A DNA stretch of 62,952 nt, filler included, from Kipferlia bialata (taxonomy: Eukaryota): the NCBI GenBank assembly GCA_003568945.1. It is 4 parts of 4 records of this genome, joined end to end, with 100 filler letters (N's around TTAATTAATTAA, not from the genome) between each part and the next. Parts side by side here need not be neighbours in the genome. Positions count along the whole stretch, not along the records: positions 1 to 25,131 come from BDIP01000212.1; 3 more parts are not named here. One strand, given 5' to 3'. Shown piece by piece: positions 56 to 52,025 of this stretch. Each line of letters starts with the position of its first letter. Position 1 is the first letter of the stretch. Under the pieces are notes generated by a model. The model was not told the origin of the DNA, made no database searches, and saw only the letters and a list, made by a program, of their open reading frames with translations. Both the position numbers and the translations under genes were made by a program.

Positions 56-3000
56 TGGGGTGAGAAGAATACTCACAGATACAAATACCATGTACACATA
101 TGTTATATACATACACCCACCTAGTGAGGGGTATGCACTCTTAGGTATGCATAGTATTCACGCAGATAGTACATTATACACACATATATATTCATATACA
201 CATCAAGTATATACCTAGCGATGGGTATGCACTCTTGGGTGCAGGGGCAGCAGGGGACCCAGGGGTGGAGGCACTGGGAGTAAGGTATATATTAATTATG
301 ATATCTAGTAAAGATATGAATGTGAATATAATCACTGAACACCATAGTAAAGATGGCAGCATTGTGTATATGGTCTACCTGGGTGTGGGGAATGCCATGA
401 CTGACTGCTTCTGTCTGCCATAGGTGTGTCTGGGGGTGAGATGAAAACTACCATATAGAGAATAGTGATCGATCCATGTCCATAGTCTACATACATATAT
501 ATATTCATAAACATACCTAGGCGGCAGCTGCGGGGCCTTGAAGGGTGTGAATGTGCATGCATGGAGGGTGTGCATGGCGTTGTAGGAGTCCCTCACACCG
601 TGGATGTTGGGGATGTTGAGGTGGAAGACCTGAAGTAAGAGGTGTATTGACACAACAATACCAATAACAACATACTGGATGCTGAAGTGCTGAAGATACA
701 CCCTCAGTGGTTTCGAAGAGTACAATACTCTTGCCCGTGATACATATATATACTCTTGCTTGTACCTTGACGTTTGGGTATGCACCGGCGCTCTCCTTGC
801 CCTTGCCCATGATCTGGCATTAAGGGTGTAGGGGGGGAGAACAACTAGAGGATACATATAGTGGATATATATACTCCATGGAAGCCCAATCGTGTTCCGT
901 CATCACATACATTGATGAGTGTAAATACATCTATGCGGATCCTATATACACTACCTGGTTGGCCTGGTCATCATATACATTAGTGTATATTAAGAATATG
1001 GTATATAGATGTATATTACATATATGGGATTCTAATAATTACCTGGTTAGCCACAGCATTGACCCATGCCCTTGCGTCAAAGATGACCACCCGGGGGGAC
1101 TCGGGGGGGACACGCCGGATGGCCTGACAATGAGAGGAGGAGACTATATAAAAGAAACTATGGGACACATATGATGACCTGTTTGTAAGAGACATGTAAT
1201 AGTATATACAATACCTCAACAAGTGCCTCGTCCTCGATGGACCTGCTCTTGAACCCGGCACAGGGCTGGCTGCATCTGGGTATAAGACTCAATATATGTA
1301 TAAATATATATATACATTCATACTTATGCATATACACACACATATGTATACACACTCATGTACCTGCATATGCTGATGCCTGTGAGGGGTGACCTCCAGC
1401 ACAGGGTGGGGATGCGTCCACTGGACCTGGGAGTAAGTACACATACTCTAAATTATTATGTGCAGACATGACAGCAGAGAATATTCATACCATATTATAT
1501 ATACATAGAGTGTACCTGAACTTAGCACTAGCCATCAGCGTAGTATCACTGATGCCCTCTGGCACTGCCATGACAGCAGGGTAGGAGGGAGACAGCTCAT
1601 AGGCCACGTTGACATAGGAGATCCTCCAGCCCTGGGGTTATATATATCCATATATATAATACAAAAGAACATATACTAGGCATTGGTATTAGCTCATAGG
1701 CCACGTTGGCATAGGAGATCCTCCAGCCCTGGGGTTATAGAATATAGAAGTATATCGTTCTATTCCATACCTCTCCGCTGAGGTGTGGGGGTGGTGTGGG
1801 GGGAGTCAGACTGGGCGGGAGGGGCTCGGGTCTGAGGTTAAGACAACTATATACTCATCATTACAAACGCAGGGTAGTGACCTATACCTGTTAGTGGTGA
1901 ATGACCTGATGTGTCTCAGTACAAGTATATAGATAATTATTATAACATATATAGTAGGTACCTGTTAGTGGTGTAGGGCTTAAGGTGTGTCATGCTGTCA
2001 AACACAGACATCTCACGGTGGAAGGGTGCCTGGGGGGTTAGGATTGTAACCAATAACATCAAAAAAACATGCCATAGAACCAGTAATATATAAAATCCTA
2101 TACATAAATATATATAGATTTACATATATGTATATACAACAGTATAACTATATGTATACCTTTGGGTTGAGGCCTGCCAGTCCAAATGCCTTCTTCCTCA
2201 TGGTCTGGCTCCGCTTGGTGGCAAGGGGCTCCTGGGTATCAGGAATAGTGTAAGTGATTAACTGTATACAAAGGAAGACACATACATAGAACATTGGTAT
2301 GTGACTGCGCATACCTAGATAGATAGATACATGTGAGTATGTATAAACACACATATATATATGTATGAGAGCATACTGGACCATGCGCATACCTGTGAGT
2401 ATGGAGGTGGAGGCATGTACACCACGCCCTGTCTCCTGAACTCCTTGATGGGGTCAAAGTGCATCCAGCCACGGGTTGCCCTATTGTTAGAGTTAATAAC
2501 ACACACACATATATATATAGTATACATGATACACAATATATGATTGTGTATAATGATACTTGATGGGGTCAAAGTGCTCTGGAGGCCCTAGCATTAGAAT
2601 GTATAGTATACACAATTGATTATACATGACTGTATATACAACGATACTTGATGGGGTCAAAGTGCATCCAGCCCCGGGTTGCTCTGAAATGAGTCTGCAT
2701 GATATATACATTAACATACATATATCATTATACTAAGAATGATATGTCTGGATAGAGAATCCATACCTCAGCACCGCTGGGTATCTCTGGAACACATCGT
2801 TGATGGAGGTGGGTTGGTTGGCAGTGATCCTGGTATCAGCATAAACAGTAATAGATGAATACTGCCATATACTGTACAAGCATACATAGCGGGCTGGTTG
2901 GCAGTGATCCTGGTATGAACAGTACAAATGAGGAAAGAATTATGAACAAGTCATGCATTAATGGTATTGGTGAAGGCTAACTGGTGTAAAGAGATATACT

Positions 3001-5194
3001 GGTCAAAATGTACAATTCGCAGAATTACAACACATTCATATGCATACCTGCCGTGCATTGGGTTTGGTGCCTTTGACCTCCCGTACATCTGCTTGGACAC
3101 GGCATCGACACCCTGGTATGAGATACAGGTAGAATATGAATGGAACACAACATATAATATAATTACACATTTGTTTGCACACAGCATCGAAACCCACAGG
3201 TGAGGACAAATATCCAATAAGACTACATCACCAGAGTATATGAGTTTGCATGCAATATTGGATACTTTCACCAACAAGAGGTAGGAGTATAATGTCTCCT
3301 GACTATCTCTATGAATGGTTGTAGATGTATGAGGATGATGTATGCAGAACAGTGTTACCAAACTGCACCGACAGGGGGTGGAGGTCTATGTCGTCATCGT
3401 GTATCAGTATCAGTATCGTACACAGTATATATTAATACCTGCACCGACAGTGGGTTGAGGTCTATGTCGTCATCGTGTATGAGTATCAGTATCGTACACA
3501 GTATCAGTATCCTACACAGTATATATGGGTACCTGCACCGACAGAGGGTTGAGGTCTATGTCGTCATCGTGTATAAGAGTGAAGCCACTCTGCACACCCT
3601 GGTCAGACTCAGACTCAATGTCACCTGGGTTAATAATTAAGTATATAGAACACATAAAGAAATATATATATAGGTATATATATTATAACACAAAATAGTA
3701 AGTACTCTGCACACCCTGGTCAGACTCAGACTCAATGTCACCTATGGGTAAGAGGGACACTATACACATCAGCCAAAGTACTTGTGAAAACACACACATG
3801 AATACTGTGTATGAAACATCTATGTGTGTCACCTGTCCTCTGCGGGTGGCGTATGATATATATATCAAACACAAATACAATTTACAAAAATGTCATATTC
3901 AATACTATGTCTCACCTGTCTCCTCTGCGGGTGGTGCCTGGGAGTTGATACAGGCCTGGGTGTGAGAGACATGATACACATCACAATGATTCAGACACTA
4001 ACATGTATACATACATCAGCATATACCTGCTTGAGAACTGTCTCAAAGTGGCATATGTAATATATATAATACACTGGTGTATATATATGTACTCATATAC
4101 ATATATACCTGCTTGAGCACTGTCTCGAAGTGGTGCTGCAGGGCAAAGCAGGACTCCCTCAGCTGAAGGGCATCGCACTCGGCCTGGTTTAGCATAATAT
4201 CATTGGGTACTACAAACAAACGCATAAACAGGAAATAAATAGTTACACATATATATCCTCAACTGAAGGGCATCGCACTCGGCCTGAGAGTGAGGAAGCG
4301 TACATAGAGGTAAATAATATTCAAAAATTATGAATATATATATATATATATATCAGTACATACCTCGAGGTGCTTGGCCACCACCCTCCTGGCCGGGGTG
4401 TTGGGGTCAAAGCCTGGGGGGTAAGACAGCCTATACAACAACATAGTGTAGTGCGTACACAAGAAACTATAGAGGTACATGATACTACACACCTAGCTTG
4501 ATGACCAGTGCTGTGATGAGCTCCACCTCCAGTAGGTATAGAGTGTAGATACACTATACACATATAAAACATAGTACACTGAAGATACCTAGCTTGATGA
4601 CCAGTGCTGTGATGAGCTCCACCTCCAGCAGGTATGGACCAGTGGCAGAGCGGCCCTTGCCACCAACCTGGGGGTAAGACAGTACAAAGGAATCAGAGTG
4701 GTAATACTACATATCACATACATAGAGCATGTGCTGATATGAATATACATATATGGAATATACCTTTGTGACCCTGACAATCTGGCCAATGGGCACAGCC
4801 AGCAGAGGCTGTCTGACAGAGTGGGTGTCGGAGTCAGTAAGGAGCAGTCTAAAGGTTAGCGATAATGGAGAGAGAGAGAGGGAGAGAGAGAGAGGGAGAG
4901 AGAGAGGGAGAGAGAATTGTCCGACAGAGTGGGTGTCAGAGTCAGTCAGAAGGAGCCTAGTGTAAAGGTAAATACGGGAGAGAGAGAGAGAGAGAGAGAT
5001 GTCACAGAGTGGAGAGCAGTCTAACGGTTGGAGAAGAAGAGAAGGGTGGGGGGTGATATATACAACTTCAGAAGAGTGTCAGAATCAGGTAGAAAGAGCT
5101 TGCATTTAGCATATACGTAACATACACTCACCTGTAGTTTGTGATTGTGAGTGTCCCAGTCACGTCACAGTTGTCGTTGCCACCATAGACAGGC
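52..5194 (-). CDS. Myotubularin-related phosphoinositide phosphatase (multi-exon, partial at both ends)
   Basis: Spliced exons give a GRAM-like GTLTITNYRLLL, then GWRISYVNVAYELSPSYPAVMAVP..ISD..L..SAKFRSSGRIPTLCW, CSQPCAG..SRSIEDE, IFDARAWVNAVAN and LNIPNIHGVRDSY, all hallmark myotubularin motifs. The catalytic HCSDGWDRT motif was not seen in the window. Confidence 0.9.
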
Positions 5195-5251
5195 CTGGGG
5201 GTAAGACAGGTCAAAGAGAAGGCGAAGGTGGAGTGGAGAGGGGGGAGGCGT

Positions 5252-5300
5252 AGGGGGGGGGGGGGGGGGGGGGGGGACAAATAAACCCCCCCCCCCCCCC
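5252..5300. other. Poly-G/poly-C junction, probable assembly mis-join
   Basis: A G-run then a C-run sit between two divergent genes that both begin at an internal splice acceptor, with no start exon between them. Confidence 0.6.
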
Positions 5301-5345
5301 ATCTCTCTCTATACATATGTATCTATACCCCACCCCTTACCCCAG

Positions 5346-5519
5346 GCCCGCCTTGAGAGTGAGAGGCAAGAGGTGCTGGCAGAGACACAGAGGAGAGAGA
5401 GGGTGGCCACAGCAGCAGCTGCTGACCGGAGGTAAAGAGTATATATATATATATATACATATGCATGATGTATCCCTCACCCCAGGGCCGTTGTGCACAT
5501 GAGACAGGCCAACAGTGTA

Positions 5520-5555
<36 letters not shown>

Positions 5556-7968
5556 TATATATATATATATACATATGCATGTATCCTCACCCCAGGGCCG
5601 TTGTGCACATGAGACAGGCCGAGAGGGAGAGGGAGGGAGAGGCACATGGGGTGAGAGAGAGGGAGAGAGAGACTGCCGACCCTGTCCTCGAGGCAGAGAG
5701 GGCCAAGGAGGCAGAGAGGCAGAGGCGGGTGCGGTATCTGCAGAGGAATGATAGGAAGAAGGTAGATGAACACACATATTTACGTGTTATACTATAGTAT
5801 AGTGATGAAATTTGCACATCCACTCGTTTGTGGTATCTGCAGAGGAACGAGAGGAAGAAGTTACTGTCCAGGATATAGTATAGTATTGTATAGTACATTT
5901 TTTACTTGTGTGTGTACACTCTATGCCATCTGACCACTAGGTGCAGCGCAGGGCAGCGACAGCCAAGGCCAGGGGCAGGACTAGGGGGAAGGTGGGAGAT
6001 TACATATGAATAGTATGGGGTATTAATGAATACTATATATCTAACCCCAGCCCCGCCCTGCCTGGGCCCGTATATACATGAGTAATATATGTATATATAT
6101 ATACTCTATGTACTTGTCTCTAACCCCTAGTCCAGACCTGCCTGGGCCCGTACCGAGGAGGGCAACTATGTATATACTATATATCATCACGCTATATATG
6201 TCTCTAACCCCAGCCCCGCCCTGCCTGGGCCCGTACCGAGCAGGGCAACAGGGCAGCAGAGGAGGATGCCGTGGATCAGCTGCTGGCATTTGCAGATGGG
6301 TGCGTCTCTCTCTGTCTGTCTCTCCTTTTCTCTCTCTATGTATGTTTTCCACTGACCCCTAGTCTCCCAGTGATGATAGTACTATACAGCTACAATGGTA
6401 CTATTCTCTCTGTATATACCTCTCACCCTCCAGTCTCCCCAGTGATGACGAGGCCACTGCCGCAGCCCCAGGCGATGATACCAAGGTCAGTACACGCGCA
6501 TCTTTCTGTATGCATACATGTATACATGCTAGTCCCATTCTCCTCATGGGTGAACTAGTATTGTCTATAGAGAATTCGTTCAGCGTCTAGAGTTATATAA
6601 TCATCTTCTCTGTATCTCTACTATCTCCTCACCCCAGACCCCTGATGCCATGGGTGAGCTTGTCCAGGAGCTGCTGGGCGACACATCCCTGGTGGATGCA
6701 TTGACTAGGGCAAAGGTAGATAGTAAACACACATACACACATATAGATATACATATGTGTGTGTATGGATATATATATGGTGTGCGTATACTGTTGGGTG
6801 ACACATCCCTGGTGGATGCACTCACAAGGGCTAAGGTGTGATATGGAATACTCTTTGGAATACCATTTCAAATGATTATATGTGTGTATTCTTATGCTAC
6901 GAGAACTTGTGAGTTATCTTACTCTCCCTTACCCTCAGGAGCGTCTGGACCGTATAGTGGCACTGGCCAGGGTCAAGTATGAGGTATGGCGTATGGTGTA
7001 TATTAATATACATATATATAGTGTATTGTACTCTACTTTGTGACCTACTAGGGCAACCTTTTTGCCGATCCATCAGTTTGTATACTGCTATACGGTTACT
7101 TATTGCGATGATACCCTCCATATACACACCCTATGCACTAAATGTGTATGTAGTCTCTATAGAATACATATATGTTTGTATTCTCCCGTGTCTAACCCCT
7201 AGGGCCAGGGCAACCTGGGTGCCAATCCCTTTGAGGAGGGTGCAGAGGGAGAGAGAGAGGGAGAGGGAGAGGGAGAGGGCAAGGACATCTATGACACACA
7301 CGAGGTGTTCAAGTTCAAGGATGGGTCATCACTCCTGCGCTACTTGATGCAGGTATAGTAGTCAATGCGTATGTATATATGTGTGTATATCCTGTTACGC
7401 TGCCCTCCAGCCCAGCAGCTCCACCTCTCCATATTGTTATGTAACATATGTATAAGTATACATATATATCATCCCCTCTCACCCCCTAGCAGCTCCCCGG
7501 CCACTCCGAGCAGTCCCTCCCTCTCTCTCTATATATATGTAGTATATATATGTATAGTAAATGTCATCTTTGCTGACCCCCCAGCAGCTCCCCGGCCACT
7601 CCGAGCAGTCTCTCCGGGCCATGATAGCCAAGGAGAGACAGGAGGAGAAGGAGAGAGAGAAGGAGAGAGAGAGAGAGGCAGAGAGACAGCGCGAGATTGC
7701 CGCCATCCTCGCCAAGGACAAGGAGAGTAAGAGAGAGGGAGAGAAGGGTGCAGAGGGTGCTATGCCGCATATCGATGCCCCCATGGCCATGGATGCAGTG
7801 GGGAAGAGGATACCCCACCCTACTAGGACAGAGACAGGGGGGAGACGCATACCAGAGGGCGAGGTCTTCTGTGTGCCCCCCGCAGACCCAGAGGATGTTC
7901 CCACACACACGCGCAAGGAGGTCAATGTACACACACTGCCATACAGGTTCAGAAACGCAGCTCTCTAG
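5346..7968 (+). CDS. Hypothetical charged/coiled-coil protein (multi-exon, 5' partial)
   Basis: GT-AG exon chain in frame (ARLESERQEV..., AVVHMRQAERERE..., DAVDQLLAFAD, MGELVQELLGDTSLVDALTRAK), with a last exon 7586-7968 ending RFRNAAL-stop. No family recognised. Confidence 0.65.
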
Positions 7969-8429
7969 ACACTGTGGGCACTGTAGGCACATTAGGGTGT
8001 GTGGCTATATTGTAGTCTGGTGTTTGTTTGTATGTATATGGGGCTCTTCTGTACCCTCCCTTTGTTTTATGGAGGGTGACGTCCCATATGCACTACTTAC
8101 AATGGTGGTATTCGGTTAGGGTGTCTTTTGTGTTGTTGTTGTTCTGTAGTTTATGTTGTGTGGTCTAGATGGTTCTCTATACCATGCTGTAGCACTCTTT
8201 GTATTTGGTGGATAGATGTCTCGGTTGGGGTCATAAATCGAGAGTGATACAGTAATCAACTTGCTCCACAGTATCTTCAGAAGAGACTCCTCCACAATGA
8301 TCTAACAGAAAGACTCTCTCCCTCTCTCTATTGGTTAGCCTCCTCCTCCCTAGCGTCCTGTGCCACCAATAATACTAGGCCCAGTAACAATATGCACACC
8401 AACCCTCTCTCTATACTAGGCCTAGTTGT

Positions 8430-9574
8430 CTATTGCTTGGCCTCCTCCTCCCTAGCGTCCTGTGCCACAATCTCCATGGCAGCACGCAGTATAACACCAG
8501 CCTCCTTGAGAGGGGCAACGCCTAGGGTGGTACCTGTCGTTAGTATATACTAGGCCTAGTAGTATACAGTACAGACAGATAAAGAGAGAGAGAGAGAGGA
8601 TAACCCCTGCCTCCTTGAGGGGGGCAACGCCTAGGGTAGTACCTATAGTTAGTATGTATGGATTTATACAATGGACACCACTGTATATTCAATGGACACA
8701 CTACCTAGCAGCTCCACTATCCCCGTGTCCCCCAATGACACTATGTCCACAGGTGATATACACTATACACTATATATATATGTATATAGTGCACTATACC
8801 TAATAGCTCCACTATCCCTGTATCTCCTAGTGACACTATGTCCACTGGTGATATACACTATACACTAAACACTCTATATATATACAATGCACTATACCTA
8901 GCAGCTCCACTATCCCTGTATCTCCTAGTGACACTATGTCCACAGGTGATATACACTATACACTAAATACTCTCTNNNNNNNNNNNNNNNNNNNNNNNNN
9001 NNNNNNNNNNNNNNNNNNNNNNNNNNNNNNNNNNNNNNNNNNNNCTATACCTAACAGCTCCACTATCCCCGTGTCTCCTAGTGACACTATGTCCACAGGA
9101 GTCCTGATGCCACCCCGCCTAAGGGCACGGGCACGGCCTGGGTAAGGGGTGTGTAGACATTCTATGTATACTATACACTACATTAATAAACTACAAACTA
9201 TATACTACACTATATGATGCATGATGCCATCCTCCTTAGAGAACGGGCACGTCCTAAGGAGTTAGCCAAGAGTATACTAAGTATTATATACACATATACT
9301 ATGTGGAGGGAATGGGCACGGCCTAGAATGAGTATGTCATAATACATATACCATATATCAGGTGGTGCACTTGCATGCATACCTGGCCCCTCTCCCTTAT
9401 TGGGTGGAATACATACACAGTACATGCAAAAGTAACACAATACACTACTATGTATACTACAATACAAAAGTAACACAATATACTACTATGTATACTACAA
9501 TACAACCATACCTGGCCCCACCCCCCTTATCCTCAGCAGGGACAGGATGTCTGGCAGGGTGCCCTCCTACGGGT

Positions 9575-9611
<37 letters not shown>

Positions 9612-12600
9612 ACGGCAATGCGTAGGGTACCCTCCTGAGGTGGGCAGAGAGAAGGGAGATAGTACATACATATACAGATACCCATCGGTAGTACCTGGAT
9701 TCTCCTTGTCATCATCTCAAACAGTGCCTGGAGCTGCCAGTGCCTGGGGTTAGGACAGAGATACACTCATGCATATGTATATGAATACATATACATATAC
9801 CATATACATAATATAGGGGAATGTATACTGCAAGGAAGGGCCTGGAGCTGCCAGTGCCTAGGGTTAGGTACATAGACATACATATATACTATATACACAT
9901 CTTGTATTTACAATACTTGTACCAAGACTCCTGTTTGAACTCACCTCAGTTCCTCCGCGAGTCTGCTGCAGGTTGCCACTCCCTTGCCCACAGACAGCTT
10001 GAGACGCTGCAGGTCACCAAACCTAGTGGTTAGAGGGAGAGAGAGAGAGAGAGGGGGAGAGGGCAGGAGAGCGAGGATGGGTCTGAGACACGGGAGGGTA
10101 ACCTATATACACACACAACTATATATATATAGAGAAACACTCACTATATCCTGAATGTGTTACAGGTGACTGCATCTGGTGTATAATATAAGCATTAGAA
10201 TATACACGTATTAAAATACTATCAGTATATTCCAATATATACTCTACATACTTGATTTTGAACGTGTTACAAGTCAGTGCATCCGGCGTCTCCCTCAGGA
10301 CAGATGCCATGACCAGTGCATTCCACTATATATATACATATATATATATATATACTAATAATACTCACTTAATACGGAACGTGTTGCATGTGACTGCATC
10401 TGGTGTCTCTCTGAGTACAGATGCCATAACTAAGGCATTCCACACCAGCCACAGACCAGACTCCATGGCATCGTCAGTGATATAGGAGTGCCTGAAGTTA
10501 AGGGGGTAGAGAGAGAGAGAGAGAGAGCCACAGACCAGACTCCATGGCATCATCAGTGATGTAGGAGTGTCTGGTAGTTAGATACATATATGTATACATA
10601 GAGAGAGAGAGACAGAGAGGGGTGGGGGGGATAGACTCCATGGCATCGTCAGTGATGTAGGAGTGCCTGGTAATAAGGGTGTAGATGAAGAGAGAGAGAG
10701 AGAGCCACAGACCAGACTCCATGGCATCGTCAGTGATATAGGAGTGCCTGGTAATAAGGGTGTAGATGAAGAGAGAGAGAGAGAGAGAGCCACAGACCAG
10801 ACTCCATGGCATCATCAGTGATATAGGAGTGTCTGGGTGTTAAGGGTGTAGAGAGAGAGAGAGAGAGAGACCAGACTCCATGGCATCGTCAGTGATGTAG
10901 GAGTGCCTGGAAGTTAGATACCTATATATAGACATAGAGAGAGAGAGAAAGAGAGGGAGGGGGTGGGGGGGATAGACTCCATGGCATCGTCAGTGATGTA
11001 GGAGTGTCTGATAATAAGGGTGTAGATGGAGAGAGAGAGAGAGAGATCAGACATAACATAATCTCTTCTATTTAGATTTGCAGCAGCCTGTCCTCACACC
11101 AGTATTCAAACACGTATGTGTAAATACTTGTGCGGTAATCAGCTGAACGTGCACCGCATTTAGTCATATGTATATAAATCGACCATGAAACTATGATTAT
11201 ACATTATCCTATGGAACACCTCTCGGTACCTGAACTTGTACCGTATATAGGCATCTGCTATACAAATCGTACAGTATATACAGTATGGGAGTAAACGTTT
11301 GAATATGCATCGATATATCACTGTCATTGTATACACACAACTCCTAACCTGAACTTGCACCGCATGTAGTCTACATACACTGATATGTACACATATATAT
11401 ATGACATACACATATATACGTAGGCGTGTCGTTATTGCAATATTACTTCCCCCCTATACCTGAACTTGCACCGCATGTAGTCATCTGTGACACCCAGGGC
11501 AGTGAAGATGGCCATTAACTCTAGGATAAGTACTATAGAGGGGGAGTGGGTATTATATATATATGTATATATATTCTTATATGGCATGTGTGACACCCAG
11601 GGCAGTGAAGATGGACATGAGCTCTAGGATAAGCAGTAGGAAGAGTGTGTATCTAATATGTAGAGGGTATGTGAAGGTATATATATATATATCAATAGAA
11701 AATGTGACGCCCAGGGCAGTGAAGATGGCCATGAGCTCTAGGGTGAGCGATATATATATTCAGAATTTCCCAATAGTAATAAGGCACGTTCATGTTTCTA
11801 CCTTTGCCACTTTGTCCAGCAACCTCTCCACTATCAGCACTTACAAATATATATAAATATATATATTTATACAGTGTATGTACACTATAACCACAACTCA
11901 TACCTTTGCCACTTTGCCCCTTGTCTAGCATCCTCTCCACTATCTGCATGTCAGGTCTGAGAAGACCATCTCCACTCACGTCCCTGTCACCGTCCTTCCT
12001 GACAGTTAGTACTATGTACTTATACATACATTACATTACACGATATAAATCCATGTACTCGGTTTTCATCAGGTTACATAGAATAGCTATAGTGAAAGAA
12101 TATAGATATACAGTGAGATCAGAAGGTTATTTCCATTCACATTCATCCTCACAAGACATGACATGATACTATACTACATGTAAAGGGTATCACATATATA
12201 CATTATGGTATAGTGTCACACTCTACCTCCTGACTATGGGCATGCCAAGGGCTAGTACATGGACATCACTCCCACACAGGATGCCTAAGGTTAGATATAG
12301 AGACAAGAGAAAGTGTATATATATAGCGAGAGTTACTATGCCATATATATGGGATGCCTATGGTTTGATAGTACTGAGGGCGGTGTGCATATACCAGGGT
12401 AGAATGTTGTATACGACAATGCAATCAACATAGACCCATGCACACAACCTTCCAATAGACAAATATGTGATTCATAGATATACAAATATGAATAACAACA
12501 TAACAGCTGACAGTGCCCTAGAGAACATGTCCATATAGTATATTCCATCTCTATCTCTCTATATAGGATACCTGTCTATATAGAGAGCACCCTATATACA

Positions 12601-31830: not shown

Positions 31831-33764
31831 TTACCAGGCCTCAATCACAACGAGGCCCTTGTCGCACAGCTCGTCGTACCTCTTCTGGGCACCGTCTGCT
31901 GTGAGGCCTCCTGCTGTCACCATGGAGTCCTTGATGATGGAGACAATGTCCTCGGGAGTGCGGCCGGCAGGGCCACAGTAGCCGAAGAACCCGTCGACGG
32001 CACCGAGGCTGTTCCAGACCCTCTCCGGGTTCTCCCTCATCCTGTGGGTCACGTACACCTTCTTGGCCTGCTCCCTCGAGAAGGCAGTCACGTAGTCGCA
32101 CAGACCCATCTTCTCCCACTTCTCAAACTCGTCGATGCAGAGGGCGTCCTCGTTCCTGCGCCTGCAGCCAAAGTAGATGGTGCACTTGCCCTGCATGATG
32201 CCTCTGTTGTACAGGGCCTCGCGGTGCTGCATGAAGGAGCGGAAGGGGGCAATGCCGGAGCCAAGGCCCACGCAGGTGATGGGGACCATGGGATCCGAGG
32301 GGGGCTGGAGGGGGGAGGACTTGATCTGGACAGCCACCATGGGGTTCTCAAAGACGTTGAGGTCCTTGAGGTACCGGGTGCACTGGCCGTACCTCATGGT
32401 GCCCTTGGCTGTCTTCCAGTCAACGATGCCGATGACGAGCTGGATCTGCTCGGGGTGCATCATGTGGCTGGAGGCAATGGAGTAGAGACGGGGGTTGTTG
32501 CCGGGGATCATCTCGATCAGGTAGTCCAGAGAGACAGACACAGACTTGAACATGTCAAACACCTCGTGGTAGCGCACAGACTCGGCCACAAACTGCTCGG
32601 CAAACTCGTCCTTGCCCTCCTTGGCGGTCAGGTGCAGCAGCCTCTCCCTCTCGGACCTGTCGGTAGTGAAGGGGATCAGCGACTTGAGGAAGGACTTGGT
32701 GATGGGGCCGCAGACGTCCAGGTAGAGGCCGAACACCTCACGGACAGTCAGGGAACGGGACAGGCCGGGGGGGACCTCGGTGTCGCCGTTGCCGCGGACA
32801 GTGATGACCATCTCGGGGTCGATGGAGAGCCTCTTGCAGAGGGTGTCCACGACATCGGTGGGAGCCCTGGCCAGAATGGAGATGTGGAAGCCAGTCTCGT
32901 AGGTGAGGGTGGTGTTCTCAAGCTCGAAGTGGAACTTGTAGGCGTCCCTGGGCACTCCGTTGGGGGTGATCTTCTCGGAGTGGGAGAGCCTGACGTACTG
33001 GAACTTGGGAGGGGGGGGAGGGGGCATCTGCATGGAGGCAGTACGCACACAGGTGAACTTGGGCTCGGGGATCTGGCAGCCACCGGCGTCAGCGGCACCG
33101 AGGGCGTCCCAGAGCTGCTCCATCCAGGGGCCGAGGGCGCCCTCGTACTTCTCGGGGTGGAGCTCGTCTCCCATGCCGAGGGGCACGAGGGACTTGGCGC
33201 CGAGGGCCTTCATCCTGTCGTCGACCTCAATAGCAGCCTGGCAGAACATGGGGTAGGAGGAGGAACCAATGCCAAAGACACCCACGCGGGTGTTCTCAAA
33301 GAGGTTCTCGGCGTGGTCGGAGGACTCGAGCCACTCCCAGAAGTTGGCTGCGTTGTCGGGGTGCTCACCCATGCCGAAGGTGGAGGTGACGTAGACCAGG
33401 AGGCCGGACTTGATGAGGGTCTCGGGGTTGATCTTCTCGATCGGCTTGAGGGTCACGGCAAACTCGACGTCCTTGTTCTTGGCCTCGGAGGCAATGCGCT
33501 TGGCAATCTCCTTGGAGTTACCGGTCTGGGTGGCGTACACGATGGTCAGGGGGGTGCCCTCGACGTTGGTGGAGGGGGAGTCGTCCTCCTCGTCCTCAGT
33601 GGGCCTGAACACAATGCCGGACCTGTCGGAGTAGTGGGTGTGGAGCAGCTCGTGGGACTTGTGGGACAGGGGCTTCTCGAGGAACTCCTTGTAGAGCTGG
33701 GCAATGTCGGGGTTCTCGTGAGACCTCCTGGGGGGTGAGAATGGAGAGAGAGCGGGGGACACAT

Positions 33765-33795
<31 letters not shown>

Positions 33796-34582
33796 CCTGA
33801 GAGTGGACCTCTCGTCGATGTTGTAGATGGCCTCAGTCCTCTTCTGGAGGATGTTGGGGTTGAGGGAGCGGGGCTGTCCGCCTCCTCCGATGCAGCCACC
33901 GGGGCAGGCCATGACCTCGACAAAGTGGTACTCCTTCTCGCCGGCCCTGATGCCGTCGAGCAGCTTCTGGGCGTACTTGATGCCAGAGGCAACGGCGATG
34001 CGGAGGGTCTTCTTCTCACCGGTGGGGAGGGGAACCTCAACCATGGCCTCCTGGATGTCAGTGTCAGAATCTATACATATGGATATACTCATATATACAT
34101 TTGTGTATCAGTATGCATACCTTGATGCCGTCAAAGCCACGCACGGGGGCGTAGTTGAGGACGGGGAGGGGGGTGCCAGAGGCCAGCTCGTAGGCAGTGC
34201 GCAGGGCGGCCTCCATAACACCTCCAGTGGCACCGAAGATGATGGCGGCACCTGGGGGTGAGGGGAGAGAGGGGGGGGGGGGGTATGTATCATATATATA
34301 TATATACTAGTATATGTACACACCTGTGCCGGATCCGAGGGGGCAGTCGAACTTGGACTCGGGCAGCTGGTTGAACACAATGTGGTGCTTACGCACGAGC
34401 TTTCCGAGCTCGCGGGTGGTGATCACTGCGTCGATGTCGGCGACACCGTCGGTGGAGAGCTGGGCACGGGCGATCTCCTGCTTCTTGGCGGTACAGGGCA
34501 TCACGGAGCAGGAGAAGATCTGGGAGGGGGCGACGCCGAGCTTCTTGGCGTAGTAGGACTTGATGAGAGCTCCCATCATTCC
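31831..34582 (-). CDS. hydA: [FeFe]-hydrogenase fused to flavodoxin + FAD/NAD(P)H (CPR/CysJ-like diflavin reductase) domains; 5' partial
   Basis: Exons 34324-34582, 34121-34251, 33797-34050, 31831-33727. H-cluster motifs SVMPCTAKKQE and EVMACPGGCIGGGGQP, IFGATGGVMEAALRT, small-subunit RRSHENP..SHELLHTHY; FMN motifs YATQTGNS and TSTFGMGEHPDNA; FAD motif RLYSIASS; NAD(P) motifs GLGSGIAPF, YFGCR, AFSR..KVYV; terminal Trp. Confidence 0.95.
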
Positions 34583-34864
34583 CTGGTGTAAGTGAGAGAG
34601 AGATAATGGGGGGGGGGGGGACGGGAGGGGGGGGGGGGGGGGGGGAGGGGGGGAGGTGGGGGGGGGGGGGGGGGGGGGGGGGGAGATATACATATCACCA
34701 TATATGTAGGGGAGGGGGTATGTGACATCCATACTCACTTTGCCCTGTAGTACCCTGCCTCCATCAGCACTAACACATACTTGTATCAAATATATACCAT
34801 GTACATGCACTCTTATATACATAGATACATACAGTATATATTCATATATAGTATATACACTCAC

Positions 34865-35569
34865 TTTGCCCTGTAGTACCCTGCCTCCATCAGCACCTCC
34901 ACAATGCGGTCATAGGCTGCAGCCTGGAGAGTTAGGTATATAGCCAAGAGATAGCAAGATCCATATATAGTGTGCGGTCACAGGCTGCAGCCTAAAGAGT
35001 TAGATATATAACCAAGAGATAGAAATATCCATATAGGGTAGTGTGCGGACATATGCTGCGGCCTGTGGGGTGAGTCAGGGAGTAATACACAGTTATGTAA
35101 CTAAGCGCAGAGTATGTATATAGCGATGTATACCTCTCTGGAGTCGAAGCAGTCCCTGCCTCTCCGGTCAGGACGGTCAGTCAGGTCAAACCCTGGGGTG
35201 AAGGGAAGGTGTATGATAGTGGTGTGTGAAAGGAGCGGGGTTGGGGGAGGGGGGGGGGGTAACTACAACACGTCCAATCATAGTCAATGATACAACTGCA
35301 ACATACGGAATAGAATGGGACATAAAACAAAACACATACATGAACAACACTCCCACGGGATAACCACCTTAACACTTAATTGTGAGTAACGAGTGTGTAT
35401 GCACTGACCATAATCAACCAAAACGAGGTACCCACTCGTGAAGTGAAGGAATACACTATATACCCAGTTACTCATACAGTAGAGTGGAAGCATACACATC
35501 TAACACACTCTAACACACACTCTAACACACACATACACACTATGTACCTGGTGGGAGGGGTCGGGGCAT
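34865..35569 (-). CDS. CCDC93: CCDC93-like protein N-terminus (3 exons, 3' partial)
   Basis: Spliced MPRPLPPG|FDLTDRPDRRGRDCFDSRE|AAAYDRIVEVLMEAGYYRAK resembles the conserved CCDC93 motif ILELLVAAGYFRAR (recalled, not searched). Confidence 0.6.
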
Positions 35570-45124: not shown

Positions 45125-45626
45125 ATGACCTCTGTGGTGCTGTCCAAGGCTGCCCTGGCTGTGTTGGAGGAGAGGGCTGCCAGTCAGGACCACCGACACA
45201 GGCAGAGTCTGGTCAAGGAGTGTGTGGGCACACAGGGTATAGGGGCGCAGAGGGTGCTGTCCGATGATGCCCTGGCCAAGCTGCTCAACTGCCCCAAGGC
45301 CACGGTCAACCAATATCTCAAGAGGCTGAGGTAGGGGAACAGTAGTATACACCTACTTATTCTATATATACTCTATCTCTCTCTCAGTCTCTCTCTCTCT
45401 GTATATATTTACATATAGCCCCAGTTCCTGAAGAGGCTGAGGTATGGGCAATAGTAGTTGTACTCCTACTCTCTCTATATATATTGTATCAGTATCAGTA
45501 TATAAAGGGGATGAGGTATGGGTGTGTGTGTTAGTGACCATCCTGATACTGACCCCCCCCCATCCCCTCTCTCTTCCATTCTCTTTGTCTGATGTATGAG
45601 GAGAACCCTTCTCGGATGCCGTTCTG

Positions 45627-45667
<41 letters not shown>

Positions 45668-46447
45668 TCGATGTAACACAAGGGAGAACCCCTTCTCGGA
45701 TGCCATTCTGACCCCTCTCCTCCTGGTCAACAGACCCCCCCTGCCACCTGCTATGAGGGAGACAGCGAGGTATGGGTGTATGTATATGTGTATAGGTATA
45801 TAGGTATATGGGTGTGTATGTATGTATATGAGACCCCGCTGCCCCTGATATGAGGGAGACAGTGAGGTATGGGTATATAGGGATATTCATATTCATTTGT
45901 AGGGAGGGAGAGAGAGAGAGGATGAGAACTCATCCACTTATGCATCGATCTCTCTCTCTACCGTTTCTATGTATACTCTGACTCCCAGATGGGCCCTCCC
46001 CCGTCTCTCTCTCTCCCTCTCTTTCTCTCTCTCTCTCTGTGTGTGTTTGTGAGTATCTCCCTCTGTACCAATATCCAGATGGGCCCTCCCCCGTCTCTCT
46101 TGGCTGCCATCCTCCATGGGCAGGGCACTCCCAGACAGGTATGTAGTATAGAGATGCATGTATATATGGTAGTATATACTTTTGCTATATTGTATATATA
46201 TGTACATATATGTATGTCTTGGCTGCCATCCTCCATGGGCAGGGCACTGCCTGACAGGTATAGATAAATATGTGGGTATATGTATCCAAGTGTATAGAAG
46301 TATGTCCTATTCTCTAATACCCTAGAGAGATTGGCGTGGATGGGCTGTACAGACAGTATACGTATGCATATTTATAGTTGTACATGTGCACTTTATCAGT
46401 GCTCTTCATTTACCTACAAGGGAGATTGGCGTGGATGGCCTGTACCG

Positions 46448-46488
<41 letters not shown>

Positions 46489-48356
46489 GCATATATATAG
46501 CATGTTCATTTGTATATTGCTATACTCTCACTCTTATGCATCAGAGAGATAGGTGTGGATGGCCTGTACAGACATATATATGTATATCCATGACACATAA
46601 TATACAGCTGTAGTGTTACAGCCTCTTATACCCCAGGGAGATAGGGGTGGATGGCCTGTACAGACAGTACCTGGCAGACACAGCTAGTGCCACAAGTGCC
46701 GCAAGTACAGGTGCACAGTCCGGTGGAGCCAAGCTTACTCTGAGGGAGTTCCAATCCAGTTTGAAGGTAGTATATGGCATTTATATGTGTGTGGGTATGT
46801 GTGTGTGTGTGTATGTTTGTGTATGCAAGGCTGTCCCTGAGGGAGATAAGGTATATACATCATGTGTGTATTGCATTGGTTCCATGACGAAGTAGGTATT
46901 TATTTGAAACACCAACGAGAATGTATATTAGTGGATATCCCTCTGTCACTCTCTCTCTCCCTCTGCACCCTTACTGTCAGGTTGCCACCAGACACGGCAC
47001 TCTGTTCCCATACTACCCGGCATCACTGGCACAGGGGCACAGGTACTATACAGGGTGTAGATTTATTGACCTGTCTCTGTGTCTCATATCTCTTTTCCTA
47101 CAACGCCACTTCCGACCACTCATTCGACATCTCCCCCTCCCTCCCTCTCTCTCTCTCTCTCCATATATATGCTATATACATAAACTCATCCCTCACACAG
47201 TGGCTGTCCGATGCCTTCCTGCCCCATTCTCTGTTTTTCTCTCTCTCTGTCTCTCTAGTCCACATATACTCACTCTAGTGCCAATGCTGACCCCTCCCTG
47301 GAGATATCCCCCTCTCTGGCCCACTCCTCGTGCCCTGTCTGCCGGGTACTGATCCCTCTCTCCCTCTCCCCCGCCCTATACCTAGAGGACAGGGAGAGAT
47401 ATGCCCAGACAGCATCACTGCACCTGTCAGTATGCGAGGCACAGAGACAGTGGATAGTGTCAAAGGTATTACATGTTTTCACATATGTATATATATGTGT
47501 GTAGTATACACTGCATATGTGGCACTGCGCCTGTCTGTGTGTGAGGCACAGAGACAGTGGATAGTGTCTAAGGTAGTATATATAATCATAAATGTATATA
47601 TTTGTGTGTAGATATACCGTATTTGTATCACTTCATCTGTTAGTGAGGCACAGAGGTGAATGTGAGTGAAGGTGACATATATATATGCACAAAGCGACAC
47701 TCACCATGGACTGACCCTAGGGAGTGAGGCCCATAGGCAGTGCCCATGAGGCCAAGAAGGACAGGGAGAGGGGGTCCAGAGTGCTGGTGGAGAGGTAGGG
47801 GTGTATAGTATATGTATACAACGTGGTATGTAGAGTGAAAGACATATATTTGCTAATAGAGAGATATGGGGTATCCTCAAGCATAGCATCTATACCTCAC
47901 TCCAGATATGCCGAGTTCAAGGCCCCCAGCCCCCCCCCCCCCCTTCCCTCTGTCTCTCTCTATATATATACCTAGGTTTATATCCCACACCAGATATGCA
48001 GAGTCCGAGGCCTCCAAGGGCTCTCGGTCCCTATCCCTACCTGCACCTATAGAAGGAGAGAGCGAGAGAACCCTACCAGCACCTACAGAGGGTGCTAGCG
48101 CTGAGAGTGGGAAGGTAGAGAGTGGGGTGGGTACTGAGGGTGCTAAGGATAAGACAGATGCAAAGGGAGAGGGGGAGAGAGAGAGAGAAGGTGATACCAA
48201 GAAGGCAGAGGAGGCAGCTCCCACACCAACTGCACCCTCGGAGGACAGGTTAGACTCTCTCTCTGTCTCTCTCATTCTTTCGTCCCTGACCCACAGGGAG
48301 TTGGCTTACTTCTCTCCATTAATCGACACACTGTCTACCCCATCCGTGGCCACTCT

Positions 48357-48406
<50 letters not shown>

Positions 48407-49248
48407 ATACCAGAGAACTAGTCATCTATGCCACCCCCCTAGCACCTGTGCGATGTGCCCCTGTGGGCTGTGGGGGTGGGGTGTATGGGCTGGGAGGGGG
48501 GGCTAATGCCATGAGGACACCACATCCACCCGTGGTCAGGGGCATACTCACGACTAGGTACACCCTGTCTCGCTCTCTCTCTCCCTATACCATTATCACC
48601 CTTAATACCAGACACATTGTGCTATACTCTCTCTCTCTCTCTCTCTAGCCCCTTATTACCAGACATATTGTGCTGCAGAAGGGTGCCGAGGGAGATGGAT
48701 CTGCACCCCCATCGGAGAGGCTGGTATGGACATATGTGTATATATGCGTGTATACACATATGTTTTTATGTGTATATATCTTGAAGGCCCACTCTTGTCG
48801 GAGAGACTGGTATGTACAGGTATATGTGTATTATTGTACACATTCATGTGTTTATACCGTAGCTCACTGCAGGACATAGGCTCCCGTGTGATGCTGTACA
48901 CCCACCACTAGTACAGTTCATCTGTAATAGAAGATATGCATGTTTATGTTCCTTACTCTAGGACCTGGGCTCCCGTGTGATGCTGTACACCCAGGCTGGA
49001 CACAGGGAGGAGGGGGAGAAGGAGGGGGAGAGGGAGAGGGATGCCTGGATGACTGGTCTGGAGCACTGTCTAGGAGACATCATAGACACGCTCAAGACAC
49101 AGAGTGGGGAGGTATACTATAGATGGTATATTTATATATATATATATGTGTGTGGGGAGAGAGAGAGAGAGTAGAGCATTGTCTAGGAGATATCATCGAC
49201 ACACTCTAAGACACAGAGTGGGGAGGTATACTATATAGATGCTATATG

Positions 49249-49285
<37 letters not shown>

Positions 49286-49362
49286 TAGAGCACTGTATAG
49301 GGGATTTCATCGACACACTCTAAGACACAGAGTGGGGAGGTATACTATCTAGATGCTATATG

Positions 49363-49401
<39 letters not shown>

Positions 49402-50423
49402 TAGAGCACTGTATAGGGGATTTCATCGACAAACTCAAGACACAGAGTGGGGAGGTGTGTTTGTGAAAGTATATATATATATACATATGTGTGTGTGTGT
49501 GTGTTGAGAGAGAGAGAGAGAGAGAGAGAGAGTCACTGTGTAGGGGATGTCATAGACACACTCAAGACACAGACTGGGGAGGTATATACATTTTTTGTAT
49601 ATATACAGAGAGAGGGCGAGGTATATATATTTATATATACTCTACACACAGAGTGGGGATGTAGGCTGGTATTCATTGTAGAAGACGCTAGATAACTATA
49701 CATCTCTTATATGCCCCAGGCCCCTCCTCGAGCCTGGTGTCATAGCAAGACATGTATATATGCCCGTGTATGTACATATTACCATATATCTCTTCATCCC
49801 TTACGCTATAGGCCACTGACCCCCTCCTCGAGTCCGGTGTCATGTCTGGTCAGATGTCAGGCATCCATACACCCCTGGTGGACATGTCGGTGCCACCATC
49901 ACCCTGTCTGTCTCCTGCATCATTGCAGGTATCTATGTATATATATATGTTTACAGATAGATTGATAGATAGAGTGATATAGATATAGATATATATACAC
50001 CCTTAGTGGACATGTCGGTGCCACCCTCGCCCTGTCACCCGCATGATTGCAGGTACCATAGTGTATGTATAGATATAGATAGATACATAGATACATAGAG
50101 TGATATATATATATATATATATATACATGTACTGGTGGACATGTCGGTGCCACCTTCGCCATGCCTCTCTCCTGCATCATTGCAGGTACTATATAGTGTA
50201 TGTATATATAGAGTGATATGTATAGCTCATCATAGGAGCCCCTAGCCATGGCCTCTCTCTCCTTCCCTCCCTCTCTCTCTCTCTCTCTCTCTAGATGTAT
50301 TCTCATATACAGGAAGCCCTGGGCATGTCCCTAGCCATGCCCTTTGATGCCAACTCCAACAGCATGTGGGGGGACGTCCCTGCTGCCCCACCTCCCATGG
50401 CACCGGGGAACCCATTGCTAGAC

Positions 50424-50467
<44 letters not shown>

Positions 50468-52025
50468 TGTAAATTATTATACTATAGATCTATGTATATA
50501 TATATATGTGTAATTGTCCCTGCTACCCCACCTCCCATGGCACCGGGGAACCCATTGCTAGACAGGTGTGTGTGTATGCATGTACATGTATTGTCAATTA
50601 CTATACTATATGGATATGTATCTGTATATATAGTAATATATATATATATATATTAATGTCCCTGCTGCCCCACCTCCCATGGCACCCGGGAACCCATTGC
50701 TAGACAGGTATAGTACTCTATGTCTACTATATATATATATGTATTCATGTATACTATATAGATATGTTATTGTCCCTGCTGCACCCCATCCCATGGCGCC
50801 TCGGAACCCATTTTTGGATAGGCATCTCCTTAACCTCCCAGACTCTCTCTCTTTCTCTCTCTCTCTCTCCCTATAAGTCACTAACCTCTAGGGTTAGGTT
50901 GATCCTCCCTGCCATGGACTCCCTCAGGCACAGGGCCGTCCTCCTCTACTGCCGCTATCTCTCCCTCCGACTTGACGTCCCAGTCTCTGTGACATATGTG
51001 CATGACAGTCACATGGGGGTCATGCCACATGTGCTGGCCTGTAGGTACGATGACCCTATGTATATATGAGTGTGTAGGATTTCTTGCGTCCAATCGTACC
51101 CCAGGTGTACCCAGCTCTGTGTGTCGAGGGGTGTGCGTGTGCCCTCGGAGGCAGTGACACACGCACTGGCGGCAGACCCAATGAGAGCCAGGTATATGTA
51201 TATGTATATCTAGTGGCAACACCATACATTAAGTATACTATGTATACTCGTTGTATTACTTACTCTACCTGACCCCAGTGAGGACGTTGCCCTGCTCCCC
51301 CCACGTGCCTGGTCCAAGAGACTCGGCAACCTGTACCGGAGCATAGGCCACTCGCTGGGGTCTGCTGTATGCAGGGTGTACCTGCACTTTGAGTGGTCGA
51401 TAGGGGGGACGGAGCTGGAGGTGTGTGCGGTGTCACCAGATGCTACAACTGTACCTAGTCCCCCTAGTGCCCCTAGTGCCGCAAAGGGTGCTGTCACCAA
51501 GCTGCAGTACATGCCGACTGCCGCAGACGAGACCCTCTCTGTGCACGTCCCCCGCTGCCCTCCTCCCCCCACTCAACCCAGTCTAGGTATATATATACTA
51601 TAACCCAGTGGGGGCAGTATCAATATTGGTATATCTGTTCTATCGATACTGATACTGATACTGATACTATGCATGGGTGCCGGGGACATCGTATCAGTAT
51701 CAGTATCAGTATATCTAATCTATCGGTACTGACACCAGGCATGGGTGCCGGGGACATTGTGATGGGCAGGGGCGGCATCATGAGGCCCGCCTCTCTTTTT
51801 GGGAGCTCTCTCTCTGCCCCAGACGGCACCGCCATAGCCACAGATGCGTCTCTGCTAGGTGTGTGCAGGTCAGTCCCCAACGATGTGTTTGGGGGTATCT
51901 GCAACGCACTCTCCTTGAGCCAGAGGGGCGGGGAGGTGGGGCCTCTCAGGGACACGAGGGACAGGTACCTGAGGGGGGTCAGGGAGGGGGAGGCCAGTGC
52001 CTTGAAGAACCTCCCATTCACATAA
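45125..52025 (+). CDS. Hypothetical large protein (multi-exon; could be two genes)
   Basis: Starts MTSVVLSKAALAVLEE (in-frame stop just upstream); exon chain EIGVDGLYRQY..., LEHCLGDIIDTLKTQSGE, VRLILPAMDSLRHRAVLLYC; ends SALKNLPFT-stop. Confidence 0.55.
49061..49584 (+). repeat. Stack of exon-tail+donor copies (4 copies plus the live exon)
   Basis: CAYTGT.TAGGRGAY.TCATMGACA..CTC(T)AAGACACAGASTGGGGAGGT repeated downstream of the live exon end at ~49111. Confidence 0.85.
50376..50822 (+). repeat. Stack of exon-tail+donor copies (3 copies plus the live exon)
   Basis: VPAAPPPMAPGNPLLDR-coding tail repeated at ~50516, 50658 and 50772, with the most distant copy the most decayed. Confidence 0.85.

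What the first reader, a model, noticed from the sequence alone, without database searches (positions are those of the whole stretch)
3362..3744. Strict polarity rule for the half-exon copies
Seen: around the myotubularin exon ~3533-3625, two tail+donor copies lie only downstream (3362-3402, 3436-3480) and a head+acceptor copy lies only upstream (3704-3744). The same rule held at the other sites checked, on both strands (e.g. 1691, 2646, 4918, 14245, 46324 upstream; 119, 6791, 17872, 49174 downstream). Introns therefore grow from both ends by stacking decoy splice sites. The spliceosome must pick the first donor and last acceptor, which implies strong exon definition (inference).
Basis: partly seen in the sequence, partly recalled or inferred. 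Interest (0 to 1): 0.8.

Follow-up and report, generated by a model that had tools for sequence, protein, structure and literature searches.

The report
Former exon ends stacked inside introns
In this free-living protist, most introns examined carry tandem half-copies of the neighbouring exon, each with a splice site, and although their one-sided placement follows simply from tandem duplication, the copies differ from the working exon mostly by silent changes, so they are likely former working alleles that recombination likely pushed into the intron.

Summary
The pattern is real. In three protein-mapped genes (79 exons, 76 introns; proteins named Kipferlia bialata) I found 114 half-exon copies, all direct. 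All 52 5'-half copies lie upstream, all 62 3'-half copies lie downstream, and none is complete or inverted. One spliced RNA contig skips the copies at 4 of 4 listed junctions that have them.

The polarity needs no special rule: a ~107-nt tandem duplication across one splice site can only give this layout.

The surprise lies elsewhere. Copies differ from the working exon at 21% of fourfold-degenerate sites but 2.7% of zero-fold sites (ratio 0.13; simulated neutral copies 0.54, minimum 0.34), and from each other likewise. Decoy acceptors keep AG (43/49) and a branch-type motif (45/49) while differing in sequence from their own working site. So the units evolved as functional exon ends, most likely on other alleles, and were captured by out-of-register recombination (inferred; no second allele is in hand).

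Outer-site use fits exon definition, but nonsense-mediated decay could hide decoy use (98/114 would add a stop). One of the two named tail copies has lost its GT.

The parts
3533..3624 (-). Working exon of the myotubularin-family gene (P0002 residues ~138-168)
   Evidence: Exact spliced mapping of P0002; RNA contig piece 3532-3620 and joint 3111>3532, CT..AC; Pfam PF06602
3433..3483 (-). Proximal tail copy (45 nt, 2 differences, both synonymous) with intact decoy donor GTATTA at 3438
   Evidence: inside the intron removed by RNA joint 3111>3532
3357..3407 (-). Distal tail copy (45 nt, 3 differences: 2 synonymous, 1 Asn>His); donor lost (GT>TT)
3704..3755 (-). Head copy (38/38 identical) with decoy acceptor CTTACCCATAG, which differs in sequence from the working acceptor TTATTAACCCAG; the head starts with GT, giving an AG|GT site
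   Evidence: the RNA contig piece ends at 3620 and does not run on to 3741
3625..3703 (-). AT-rich spacer ending in the working acceptor
   Evidence: Sequence; unit 117 nt
3167..3194 (-). Head copy of the next exon (3048-3112) in the same 420-nt intron; acceptor lost (AG>TG)
215..5194 (-). Myotubularin-family gene, 21 mapped exons; 9 of 20 introns carry copies
   Evidence: 13 listed CT..AC joints
8430..24947 (-). DEAD/Helicase_C gene (P0003; HelQ-like by my own recall of the motifs), 41 exons; 29 of 40 introns carry copies
17875..18554 (-). Exon 18505-18554 with five tail+donor copies that share one break position; spacers strongly diverged
10153..11006 (-). Exon 10369-10491 with six head+acceptor copies upstream and two 3'-half copies downstream; copy 10260-10326 shows 13 differences over 67 nt, mostly at third codon positions
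45125..52025 (+). Plus-strand gene (P0004, no Pfam hit), 17 exons; 9 of 16 introns carry copies, including five tail copies at 49174-49659
8327..8471 (-). 102-nt tandem unit repeating the end of the helicase coding sequence with its stop codon; no splice site involved
   Evidence: covered without differences by RNA contig piece 7692-8530

Best explanation
The half-exon copies are direct tandem units of about 107 nt that span one exon-intron junction, and they likely are former working exon ends of other alleles, likely captured by out-of-register recombination between homologous chromosomes. Step 1 (shown by geometry): a duplication with one break in an exon and one in the next intron leaves the whole exon on the inside and a half copy on the intron side. 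Whole-exon, whole-intron and exon-only duplications, 29% of random events, are absent among the copies and are presumably purged (inferred). Step 2 (shown): the units differ from the working exon and from each other as functional alleles do, with silent changes and different but consensus-grade splice signals. Step 3 (inferred): each unit was a working junction on some chromosome for most of its history. One seed duplication per junction is then extended or refreshed when a decoy pairs with the working exon of a diverged homolog (unequal exchange, or strand invasion that overshoots into the intron and is end-joined). This explains shared break positions within arrays and the 14 nt or more of uncopied exon. 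Step 4 (shown for the dominant transcript, mechanism inferred): the outermost sites are used, likely because only the working exon has an acceptor and a donor paired across it; mistakes would mostly be removed by nonsense-mediated decay.
For: Polarity and orientation 114 of 114. Geometry simulation: 63% of random events span one junction, and no class gives the reverse layout. Mismatches at codon positions 1/2/3 = 48/28/180; 185 synonymous vs 71 non-synonymous. Zero-fold 57/2143 vs fourfold 124/588, true for each of the four bases. Decoy vs decoy 36/908 vs 52/245. Signal is lost in the wrong frames, family bootstrap of the ratio 0.09-0.18, single-copy families show the same (19/584 vs 37/160). 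Neutral copies passed through the same detector give 0.54-0.55, minimum 0.34 over 240 replicates. Decoys keep GT 51/55 and AG 43/49; YTNAY in 45/49 decoy acceptors vs 67/76 real and 10% background; 27/49 differ from their own real site at 4 or more of 10 positions yet keep motif and AG; neutral decay to the same identity never reaches the decoy score in 2000 runs. Break positions lie within 4 nt in 16 of 27 multi-copy arrays (counted). Uncopied remainder is 14 nt or more in 65 of 65 families. The species is reported as probably diploid (PMC5874029 passage); metamonads lack canonical end joining and are thought to depend on homologous recombination (PMC8516963 passages).
Against: No diverged allele is in hand: the RNA lay lists no other letters, each protein search returned one member sequence, and two metagenome scans found no close relative. 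The model needs about 20% silent divergence between past alleles. Exon-part divergence does not track intron-part similarity (rho 0.15, p 0.23), and 11 of 14 families with near-identical exon parts have spacers scoring 6.5 or less; simple capture does not predict this, so extra homogenisation of exon parts or very fast spacer change is needed. Only 19 of 63 nearest spacers are detectably homologous to the partner intron end. Outer copies are not more decayed than inner ones, and decay is not higher near the break. In the RNA-validated myotubularin introns alone the counts are small (4/125 vs 4/25). The remainder and spacer floors could come from selection on splicing instead.
Confidence: 0.5

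Rival explanations
1. The decoys are under selection now. They are used as cassettes that replace the working exon end by conversion or pop-out, or are used at the RNA level in a way not seen in the dominant transcript.
For: No decay gradient with rank; splice signals kept at near-real strength; 22 of 114 copies have no difference in the trimmed alignment.
Against: Copies lack a second splice site at the broken end (donor-grade 1/52, acceptor-grade 1/62) and only 3 of 42 AG|GT tail ends are acceptor-grade. Conversion frequent enough to impose selection should make single copies nearly identical to the exon, but they differ at 23% of fourfold sites. Several decoys have lost GT or AG, and 4 differences create stops.
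Confidence: 0.17
2. Ordinary sister-chromatid tandem duplications that decay neutrally; the codon pattern comes from mutation or detection bias, and AT-rich spacers simply mutate fast.
For: Explains polarity fully; some arrays have clearly homologous spacers; spacers are microsatellite-rich, 30% GC vs 59% in exons.
Against: Predicts a zero-fold/fourfold ratio near 0.5 against the exon and near 1 between decoys; observed 0.13 and 0.19. The effect holds for all four bases and only in the true frame. Predicts about 27% AG retention at the observed acceptor divergence; observed 88%.
Confidence: 0.12
3. The arrays are an assembly artefact: a short-read assembler strung together haplotype variants of a heterozygous genome.
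For: Allele-like divergence is what haplotypes would show; the species is reported as probably diploid and its published draft is a short-read assembly; two period-55 duplicates beside N look artefactual; no DNA run could be laid.
Against: Each unit has its own mid-exon-to-intron junction, which no ordinary allele contains; arrays hold up to seven versions; an RNA contig crosses the tandem unit at 8327-8471 without differences and no second allele shows in the RNA; one gene has 0 copies in 30 introns.
Confidence: 0.08
4. Whole exons were duplicated, served for a time as mutually exclusive exons under selection, and later lost one half by deletion.
For: Would give low dN/dS and good splice signals.
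Against: No complete copy among 114; deletions should leave both polarities, but 65 of 65 families show one; unit length is tight (10th-90th percentile 85-127 nt).
Confidence: 0.05

Closest known systems
Tandem genomic duplication as a route to intron gain (AGGT model; review PMC3443670, passages seen)
   Same: Short direct tandem duplication inside a gene that is tolerated because the extra DNA is spliced out.
   Different: There the duplicated piece is exonic and makes a new intron between two AGGT sites. Here the unit spans an existing junction, enlarges an existing intron, and the half copy sits beside its own exon.
Tandem duplications from failed synthesis-dependent strand annealing joined by polymerase theta (C. 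elegans helq-1; PMC8654963, passages seen)
   Same: Head-to-tail duplication from an over-extended break end; sizes start near 100 bp.
   Different: Median about 1 kb, and the template is described as the sister chromatid, so copies start identical. Here units are about 107 nt and look allele-diverged. Junction microhomology was not tested.
Meiotic double-cut end joining, including events between homologs (mouse; bioRxiv 10.1101/2020.06.23.168138, passages seen)
   Same: Tandem duplications from breaks on two chromatids; joining between homologs is documented.
   Different: Rare hotspot events; no genome-shaping accumulation at splice junctions in the passages I saw.
Exon-centric proximity rule (PMC9225289, abstract and passages seen)
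   Same: Competing sites closest across the exon are chosen.
   Different: Described for human exons flanked by introns over 250 nt; short introns favour the pair closest across the intron. Here copy-free introns have a median near 105 nt, yet the outer sites are used, also in 139-nt and 218-nt introns.
Tandem or mutually exclusive exon duplication (recalled, not read)
   Same: Exon-derived copies in flanking introns under coding selection.
   Different: Those copies are complete exons with two splice sites; here 0 of 114 are.

Membership tests
Tandem duplication across one splice junction | Direct orientation, adjacent to the source, partial copy on the intron side | tested here: met
   114 of 114; geometry simulation
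Tandem duplication across one splice junction | Intron part of the unit is homologous to the partner intron end | tested here: inconclusive
   19 of 63 nearest pairs beat unrelated introns at p<0.05, mean z 1.2; identity next to the junction 0.52-0.56 vs 0.39 for unrelated sites
Neutral sister-derived tandem duplication | Copy is born identical and decays without regard to reading frame (ratio about 0.5 or more) | tested here: not met
   Ratio 0.13, interval 0.09-0.18; simulation 0.54, minimum 0.34
AGGT tandem-duplication intron gain | Purely exonic duplicate that creates a new intron between duplicated AGGT sites | tested here: not met
   Units contain an existing donor or acceptor plus a spacer of median 68 nt
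Mutually exclusive / tandem exon duplication | Complete exon copy with acceptor and donor | tested here: not met
   0 of 114 complete; second site at the broken end 1/52 and 1/62
Introner or transposon with target-site duplication | The inserted part belongs to a family shared between loci | tested here: not met
   The 54 non-local self-BLAST hits are short and, by their coordinates, fall mainly in AT/GA microsatellites and G runs; window only, no whole genome held
Recursive (AG|GT) splicing | Intronic AG|GT preceded by an acceptor-grade branch region | tested here: not met
   3 of 42 tail decoys ending AG|GT are acceptor-grade; the head copy at 3741 is one true AG|GT case
Exon definition | Sites closest across the exon are used although an equal or stronger site offers a shorter intron | tested here: met
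   4 of 4 listed joints with copies; decoys at 3438, 2909 and 1728 score at least as well as the used sites; the 1728 option would leave only 42 nt
Exon definition | The choice is made at splicing, not by decay of mis-spliced RNA | not testable with these tools
   Contigs drop rare forms; 98 of 114 decoy uses add a stop, 10 shift frame
Inter-homolog capture (unequal exchange or overshooting strand invasion) | A decoy matches the working exon end of another haplotype | not testable with these tools
   No second haplotype found
Polymerase-theta-joined tandem duplication | Microhomology or templated inserts at the junction | not tested
   Needs the donor sequence; junctions were only inspected by eye

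The most novel reading that the evidence does not exclude
This genome has a junction-turnover process not found in my literature searches. Recombination with diverged homologs keeps swapping in new exon ends and pushes the old, once-functional end with its splice site into the intron. More than half of intron DNA in affected genes would then be an archive of past alleles, readable from one haploid assembly. It is tolerated because an early-branching, short-intron metamonad with a reduced spliceosome pairs splice sites across exons.
Probability: 0.4. Interest if true: 0.85.

Novelty: new variant of a known kind. Interest (0 to 1): 0.66.

Why it matters
First, it is a route of intron growth (about 100 nt per event, 57% of intron bases in the three genes) that uses neither transposons nor neutral drift of copies. 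Second, if the units are former alleles, they record sex or homolog exchange and high diversity in a group where neither has been observed directly (PMC8516963). Third, the window alone holds over a hundred natural competitions between near-equal splice sites; if the 124,912 introns reported for the species behave alike, existing RNA-seq could test directly whether exon definition operates in a short-intron, deep-branching eukaryote. Practically, the copies mislead gene finders: my ab initio run turned many into false in-frame mini-exons.

Tried and rejected
No whole genome is held, so nothing is genome-wide. One run was listed for 100-8900 (X1, RNA by guess, contigs). Its single lay showed 15 of 28 joints and 8 of 161 pieces, so junction use outside the listed joints, rare decoy use and the helicase and plus-strand arrays have no RNA check; their exons rest on database protein models, which are predictions. 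Metagenome scans: myotubularin found nothing; RPS6 found one locus at 55% identity, not used. Earlier-findings look-ups returned nothing. The first census used too harsh a complexity filter (100 copies) and was replaced (114). The first splice-site matrices included some decoy-derived mini-exons; they were redone on the 76 mapped introns, leaving one out. The first exon of P0002 (5591-5610) was dropped as a likely mis-annotation. Rejected: donors at the broken end of head copies (1/52) and recursive use of tail ends (3/42); decay gradients with rank or along the copy; non-synonymous changes being more conservative than random (p 0.13); targeting of exons by the duplication itself, since only about 7% of random events would be purely intronic and one clear case exists among 29 copy-free introns. 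Literature searches (listings only, apart from the papers named) showed no description of this pattern; the species' genome paper has no occurrence of 'tandem' or 'duplicat' in its main text. No supplements were read, and they may bear on ploidy and repair genes.

Full report
Setting. The window is intron-rich eukaryotic DNA in four pieces joined by N-flanked linkers at 25175, 39291 and 55198. Three exon queries each returned one protein, named Kipferlia bialata by the source. All three map residue for residue with GT-AG introns: a myotubularin (PF06602), a DEAD/Helicase_C protein and a protein without Pfam hit. These models are database predictions; only the myotubularin has RNA support here. 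No whole genome was available.

Observation. The named exon is 3533-3624 (minus). Tail copies lie at 3439-3483 and 3363-3407, the head copy at 3704-3741. The distal tail copy reads CAG|TT and has no donor. I aligned each of 79 exons to its flanking introns in both orientations. This gave 114 copies in 65 junction families and 47 of 76 introns: 52 5'-half copies, all upstream; 62 3'-half copies, all downstream; none inverted or complete. Chance gave 6 hits in 11,704 comparisons. One copy is probably a scaffolding duplicate. Eight ab initio genes added 24 of 24 in the same layout, with some circularity. Units are 107 nt at the median (10th-90th percentile 85-127), with about 36 nt of exon and 68 nt of AT-rich spacer. 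Intron length rises 100 nt per copy (r 0.94).

RNA. One run was listed, RNA by guess, kept as contigs. A 2506-nt contig gave 13 listed joints, all CT..AC. Four span copies (3111>3532, 2828>3047, 2479>2766, 1630>1770) and all four use the outer sites. The piece 3532-3620 does not continue into the head copy. Thirteen joints were not shown, and contigs drop rare forms. Another contig covers 7692-8530 without differences and so crosses a 102-nt tandem unit at the end of the helicase coding sequence, which has no splice site. No other letters were listed, so no second allele above 92% identity was seen.

Polarity is geometry. A tandem duplication with one break in an exon and one in the adjacent intron leaves the whole exon inside and the half copy on the intron side. 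With the observed lengths, 63% of random duplications are of this kind; 15.5% cover a whole exon, 9.7% a whole intron, 7.4% intron only and 4.1% exon only; none gives the reverse layout. Splicing cannot be the cause of the polarity: a head copy downstream of its exon would be one more decoy acceptor in an intron, and those are tolerated (inference).

What geometry does not explain. Mismatches between copy and exon fall on codon positions 48/28/180, 185 synonymous and 71 not. Zero-fold sites differ at 57/2143 and fourfold sites at 124/588, for every base. The contrast vanishes in the wrong frames, holds in single-copy families, and has a family bootstrap of 0.09-0.18. A neutral copy beside a constrained exon, passed through the same detector, gives 0.54-0.55, never below 0.34. 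Decoys compared only with each other give 36/908 vs 52/245. At the named exon, 4 of 5 differences are silent. Splice signals agree: GT is kept in 51/55 and AG in 43/49; a YTNAY motif stands in 45/49 decoy acceptors, 67/76 real ones and 10% of intron interior; 27/49 keep motif and AG while differing from their own real site at 4 or more of 10 positions; simulated neutral decay never reached the decoy score. The copies have no second site at their broken end (1/52, 1/62), so they cannot now be exons. The units therefore spent most of their divergence as working exon ends (inference, well supported).

Mechanism. One chromosome has only one working slot per junction, so two units can both have been functional only on different chromosomes (reasoning). 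I therefore favour capture between diverged homologs: a seed duplication, then out-of-register exchange or overshooting strand invasion between a decoy and the other allele's working exon, with the conserved exon as the only good homology. Break positions lie within 4 nt in 16 of 27 multi-copy arrays (counted), and at least 14 nt of exon is always left uncopied. The species is reported as probably diploid from k-mer peaks (PMC5874029, passages). Metamonads lack Ku and DNA-PKcs, keep meiotic genes, and have no directly observed sex (PMC8516963, passages). Precedents exist for duplication from failed annealing (PMC8654963, passages) and for joining between homologs (10.1101/2020.06.23.168138, passages). 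Against: no diverged allele was found; exon-part and intron-part divergence are uncorrelated, and several near-identical copies have unrelated spacers; there is no decay gradient; only 19 of 63 spacers are clearly homologous to the partner intron end. Confidence 0.5.

Splice-site choice. In human data, short introns favour the pair closest across the intron and long introns the pair closest across the exon (PMC9225289, abstract and passages). Here the outer sites win even where a decoy scores as well (3438, 2909, 1728), though the 1728 option would leave only 42 nt. Decoy donors always precede decoy acceptors within an intron (17 of 17 introns with both kinds), so no pseudo-exon forms. Spacers shorter than 35 nt are rare (1/65 vs 18% expected), which suggests each working site needs an intron-like flank. 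But 98 of 114 decoy uses would add a stop and 10 shift the frame, so decay could hide errors. Recognition by AU-rich composition, as in plants (recalled), is another option. The species retains 87 of 174 spliceosomal proteins surveyed (PMC6679479, passages). Exon definition is plausible, not shown.

Artefact. Two period-55 duplicates beside N look like scaffolding errors (that 55 is a common assembler k is recalled). The rest carry unique mid-exon-to-intron junctions, up to seven versions per site, and one unit is crossed by an RNA contig. No DNA reads were available, so about 8% doubt remains.

Novelty. Tandem duplication in genes is known, and intron gain by it is reviewed in PMC3443670 (passages). 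Eight searches of an open-access library showed no report of dense, polar half-exon arrays with allele-like divergence; subscription journals and supplements were not seen. Verdict: real; the polarity is ordinary, the selection signature is not. New variant of a known kind, interest 0.66.

Noticed in passing
window 55301-62271 (+): A predicted 31-exon gene has 0 copies in 30 introns (vs 47 of 76 elsewhere, Fisher p 3e-10); its introns are shorter (median 87 nt) and richer in GC (0.47). The process is regional or gene-specific.
   Followed up: partly
window 31834-35192 (-): [FeFe]-hydrogenase fused to flavodoxin, FAD-binding and NAD-binding domains, with one exon of about 1.9 kb.
   Followed up: partly
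window 7692-8530: One RNA contig joins the last exon of the plus-strand gene (about 5346-7968) to the last exon of the convergent helicase gene, suggesting overlapping 3' ends.
   Followed up: no
window 16496-16606 and 19279-19368: Exact duplicates with period 55 beside N, probably scaffolding artefacts.
   Followed up: yes
window 25175, 39291, 55198: TTAATTAATTAA linkers inside N runs join separate pieces; genes across them need not be neighbours. Several pieces end in long G or C runs.
   Followed up: partly
76 mapped introns: 68 of 76 exons end in AG before the GT; branch motif and acceptor are nearly fused (YTNAY within 12 nt of the AG in 67 of 76), as described for diplomonad introns.
   Followed up: partly
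window 8430-24947 (-): The most copy-laden gene looks like a HelQ-type helicase (my recall of motifs; Pfam gives DEAD, Helicase_C, weak HhH). HELQ suppresses tandem duplications in C. elegans. Probably coincidence.
   Followed up: no
window 51620-51712 (+): Imperfect inverted repeat built of GATACT/AGTATC units around a head copy; the same hexamer recurs in the spacers at 3403-3532.
   Followed up: no
window 53016-53789 (-), 37785-39085 (+): Ribosomal protein S6e and an importin-alpha-like gene (IBB domain).
   Followed up: no
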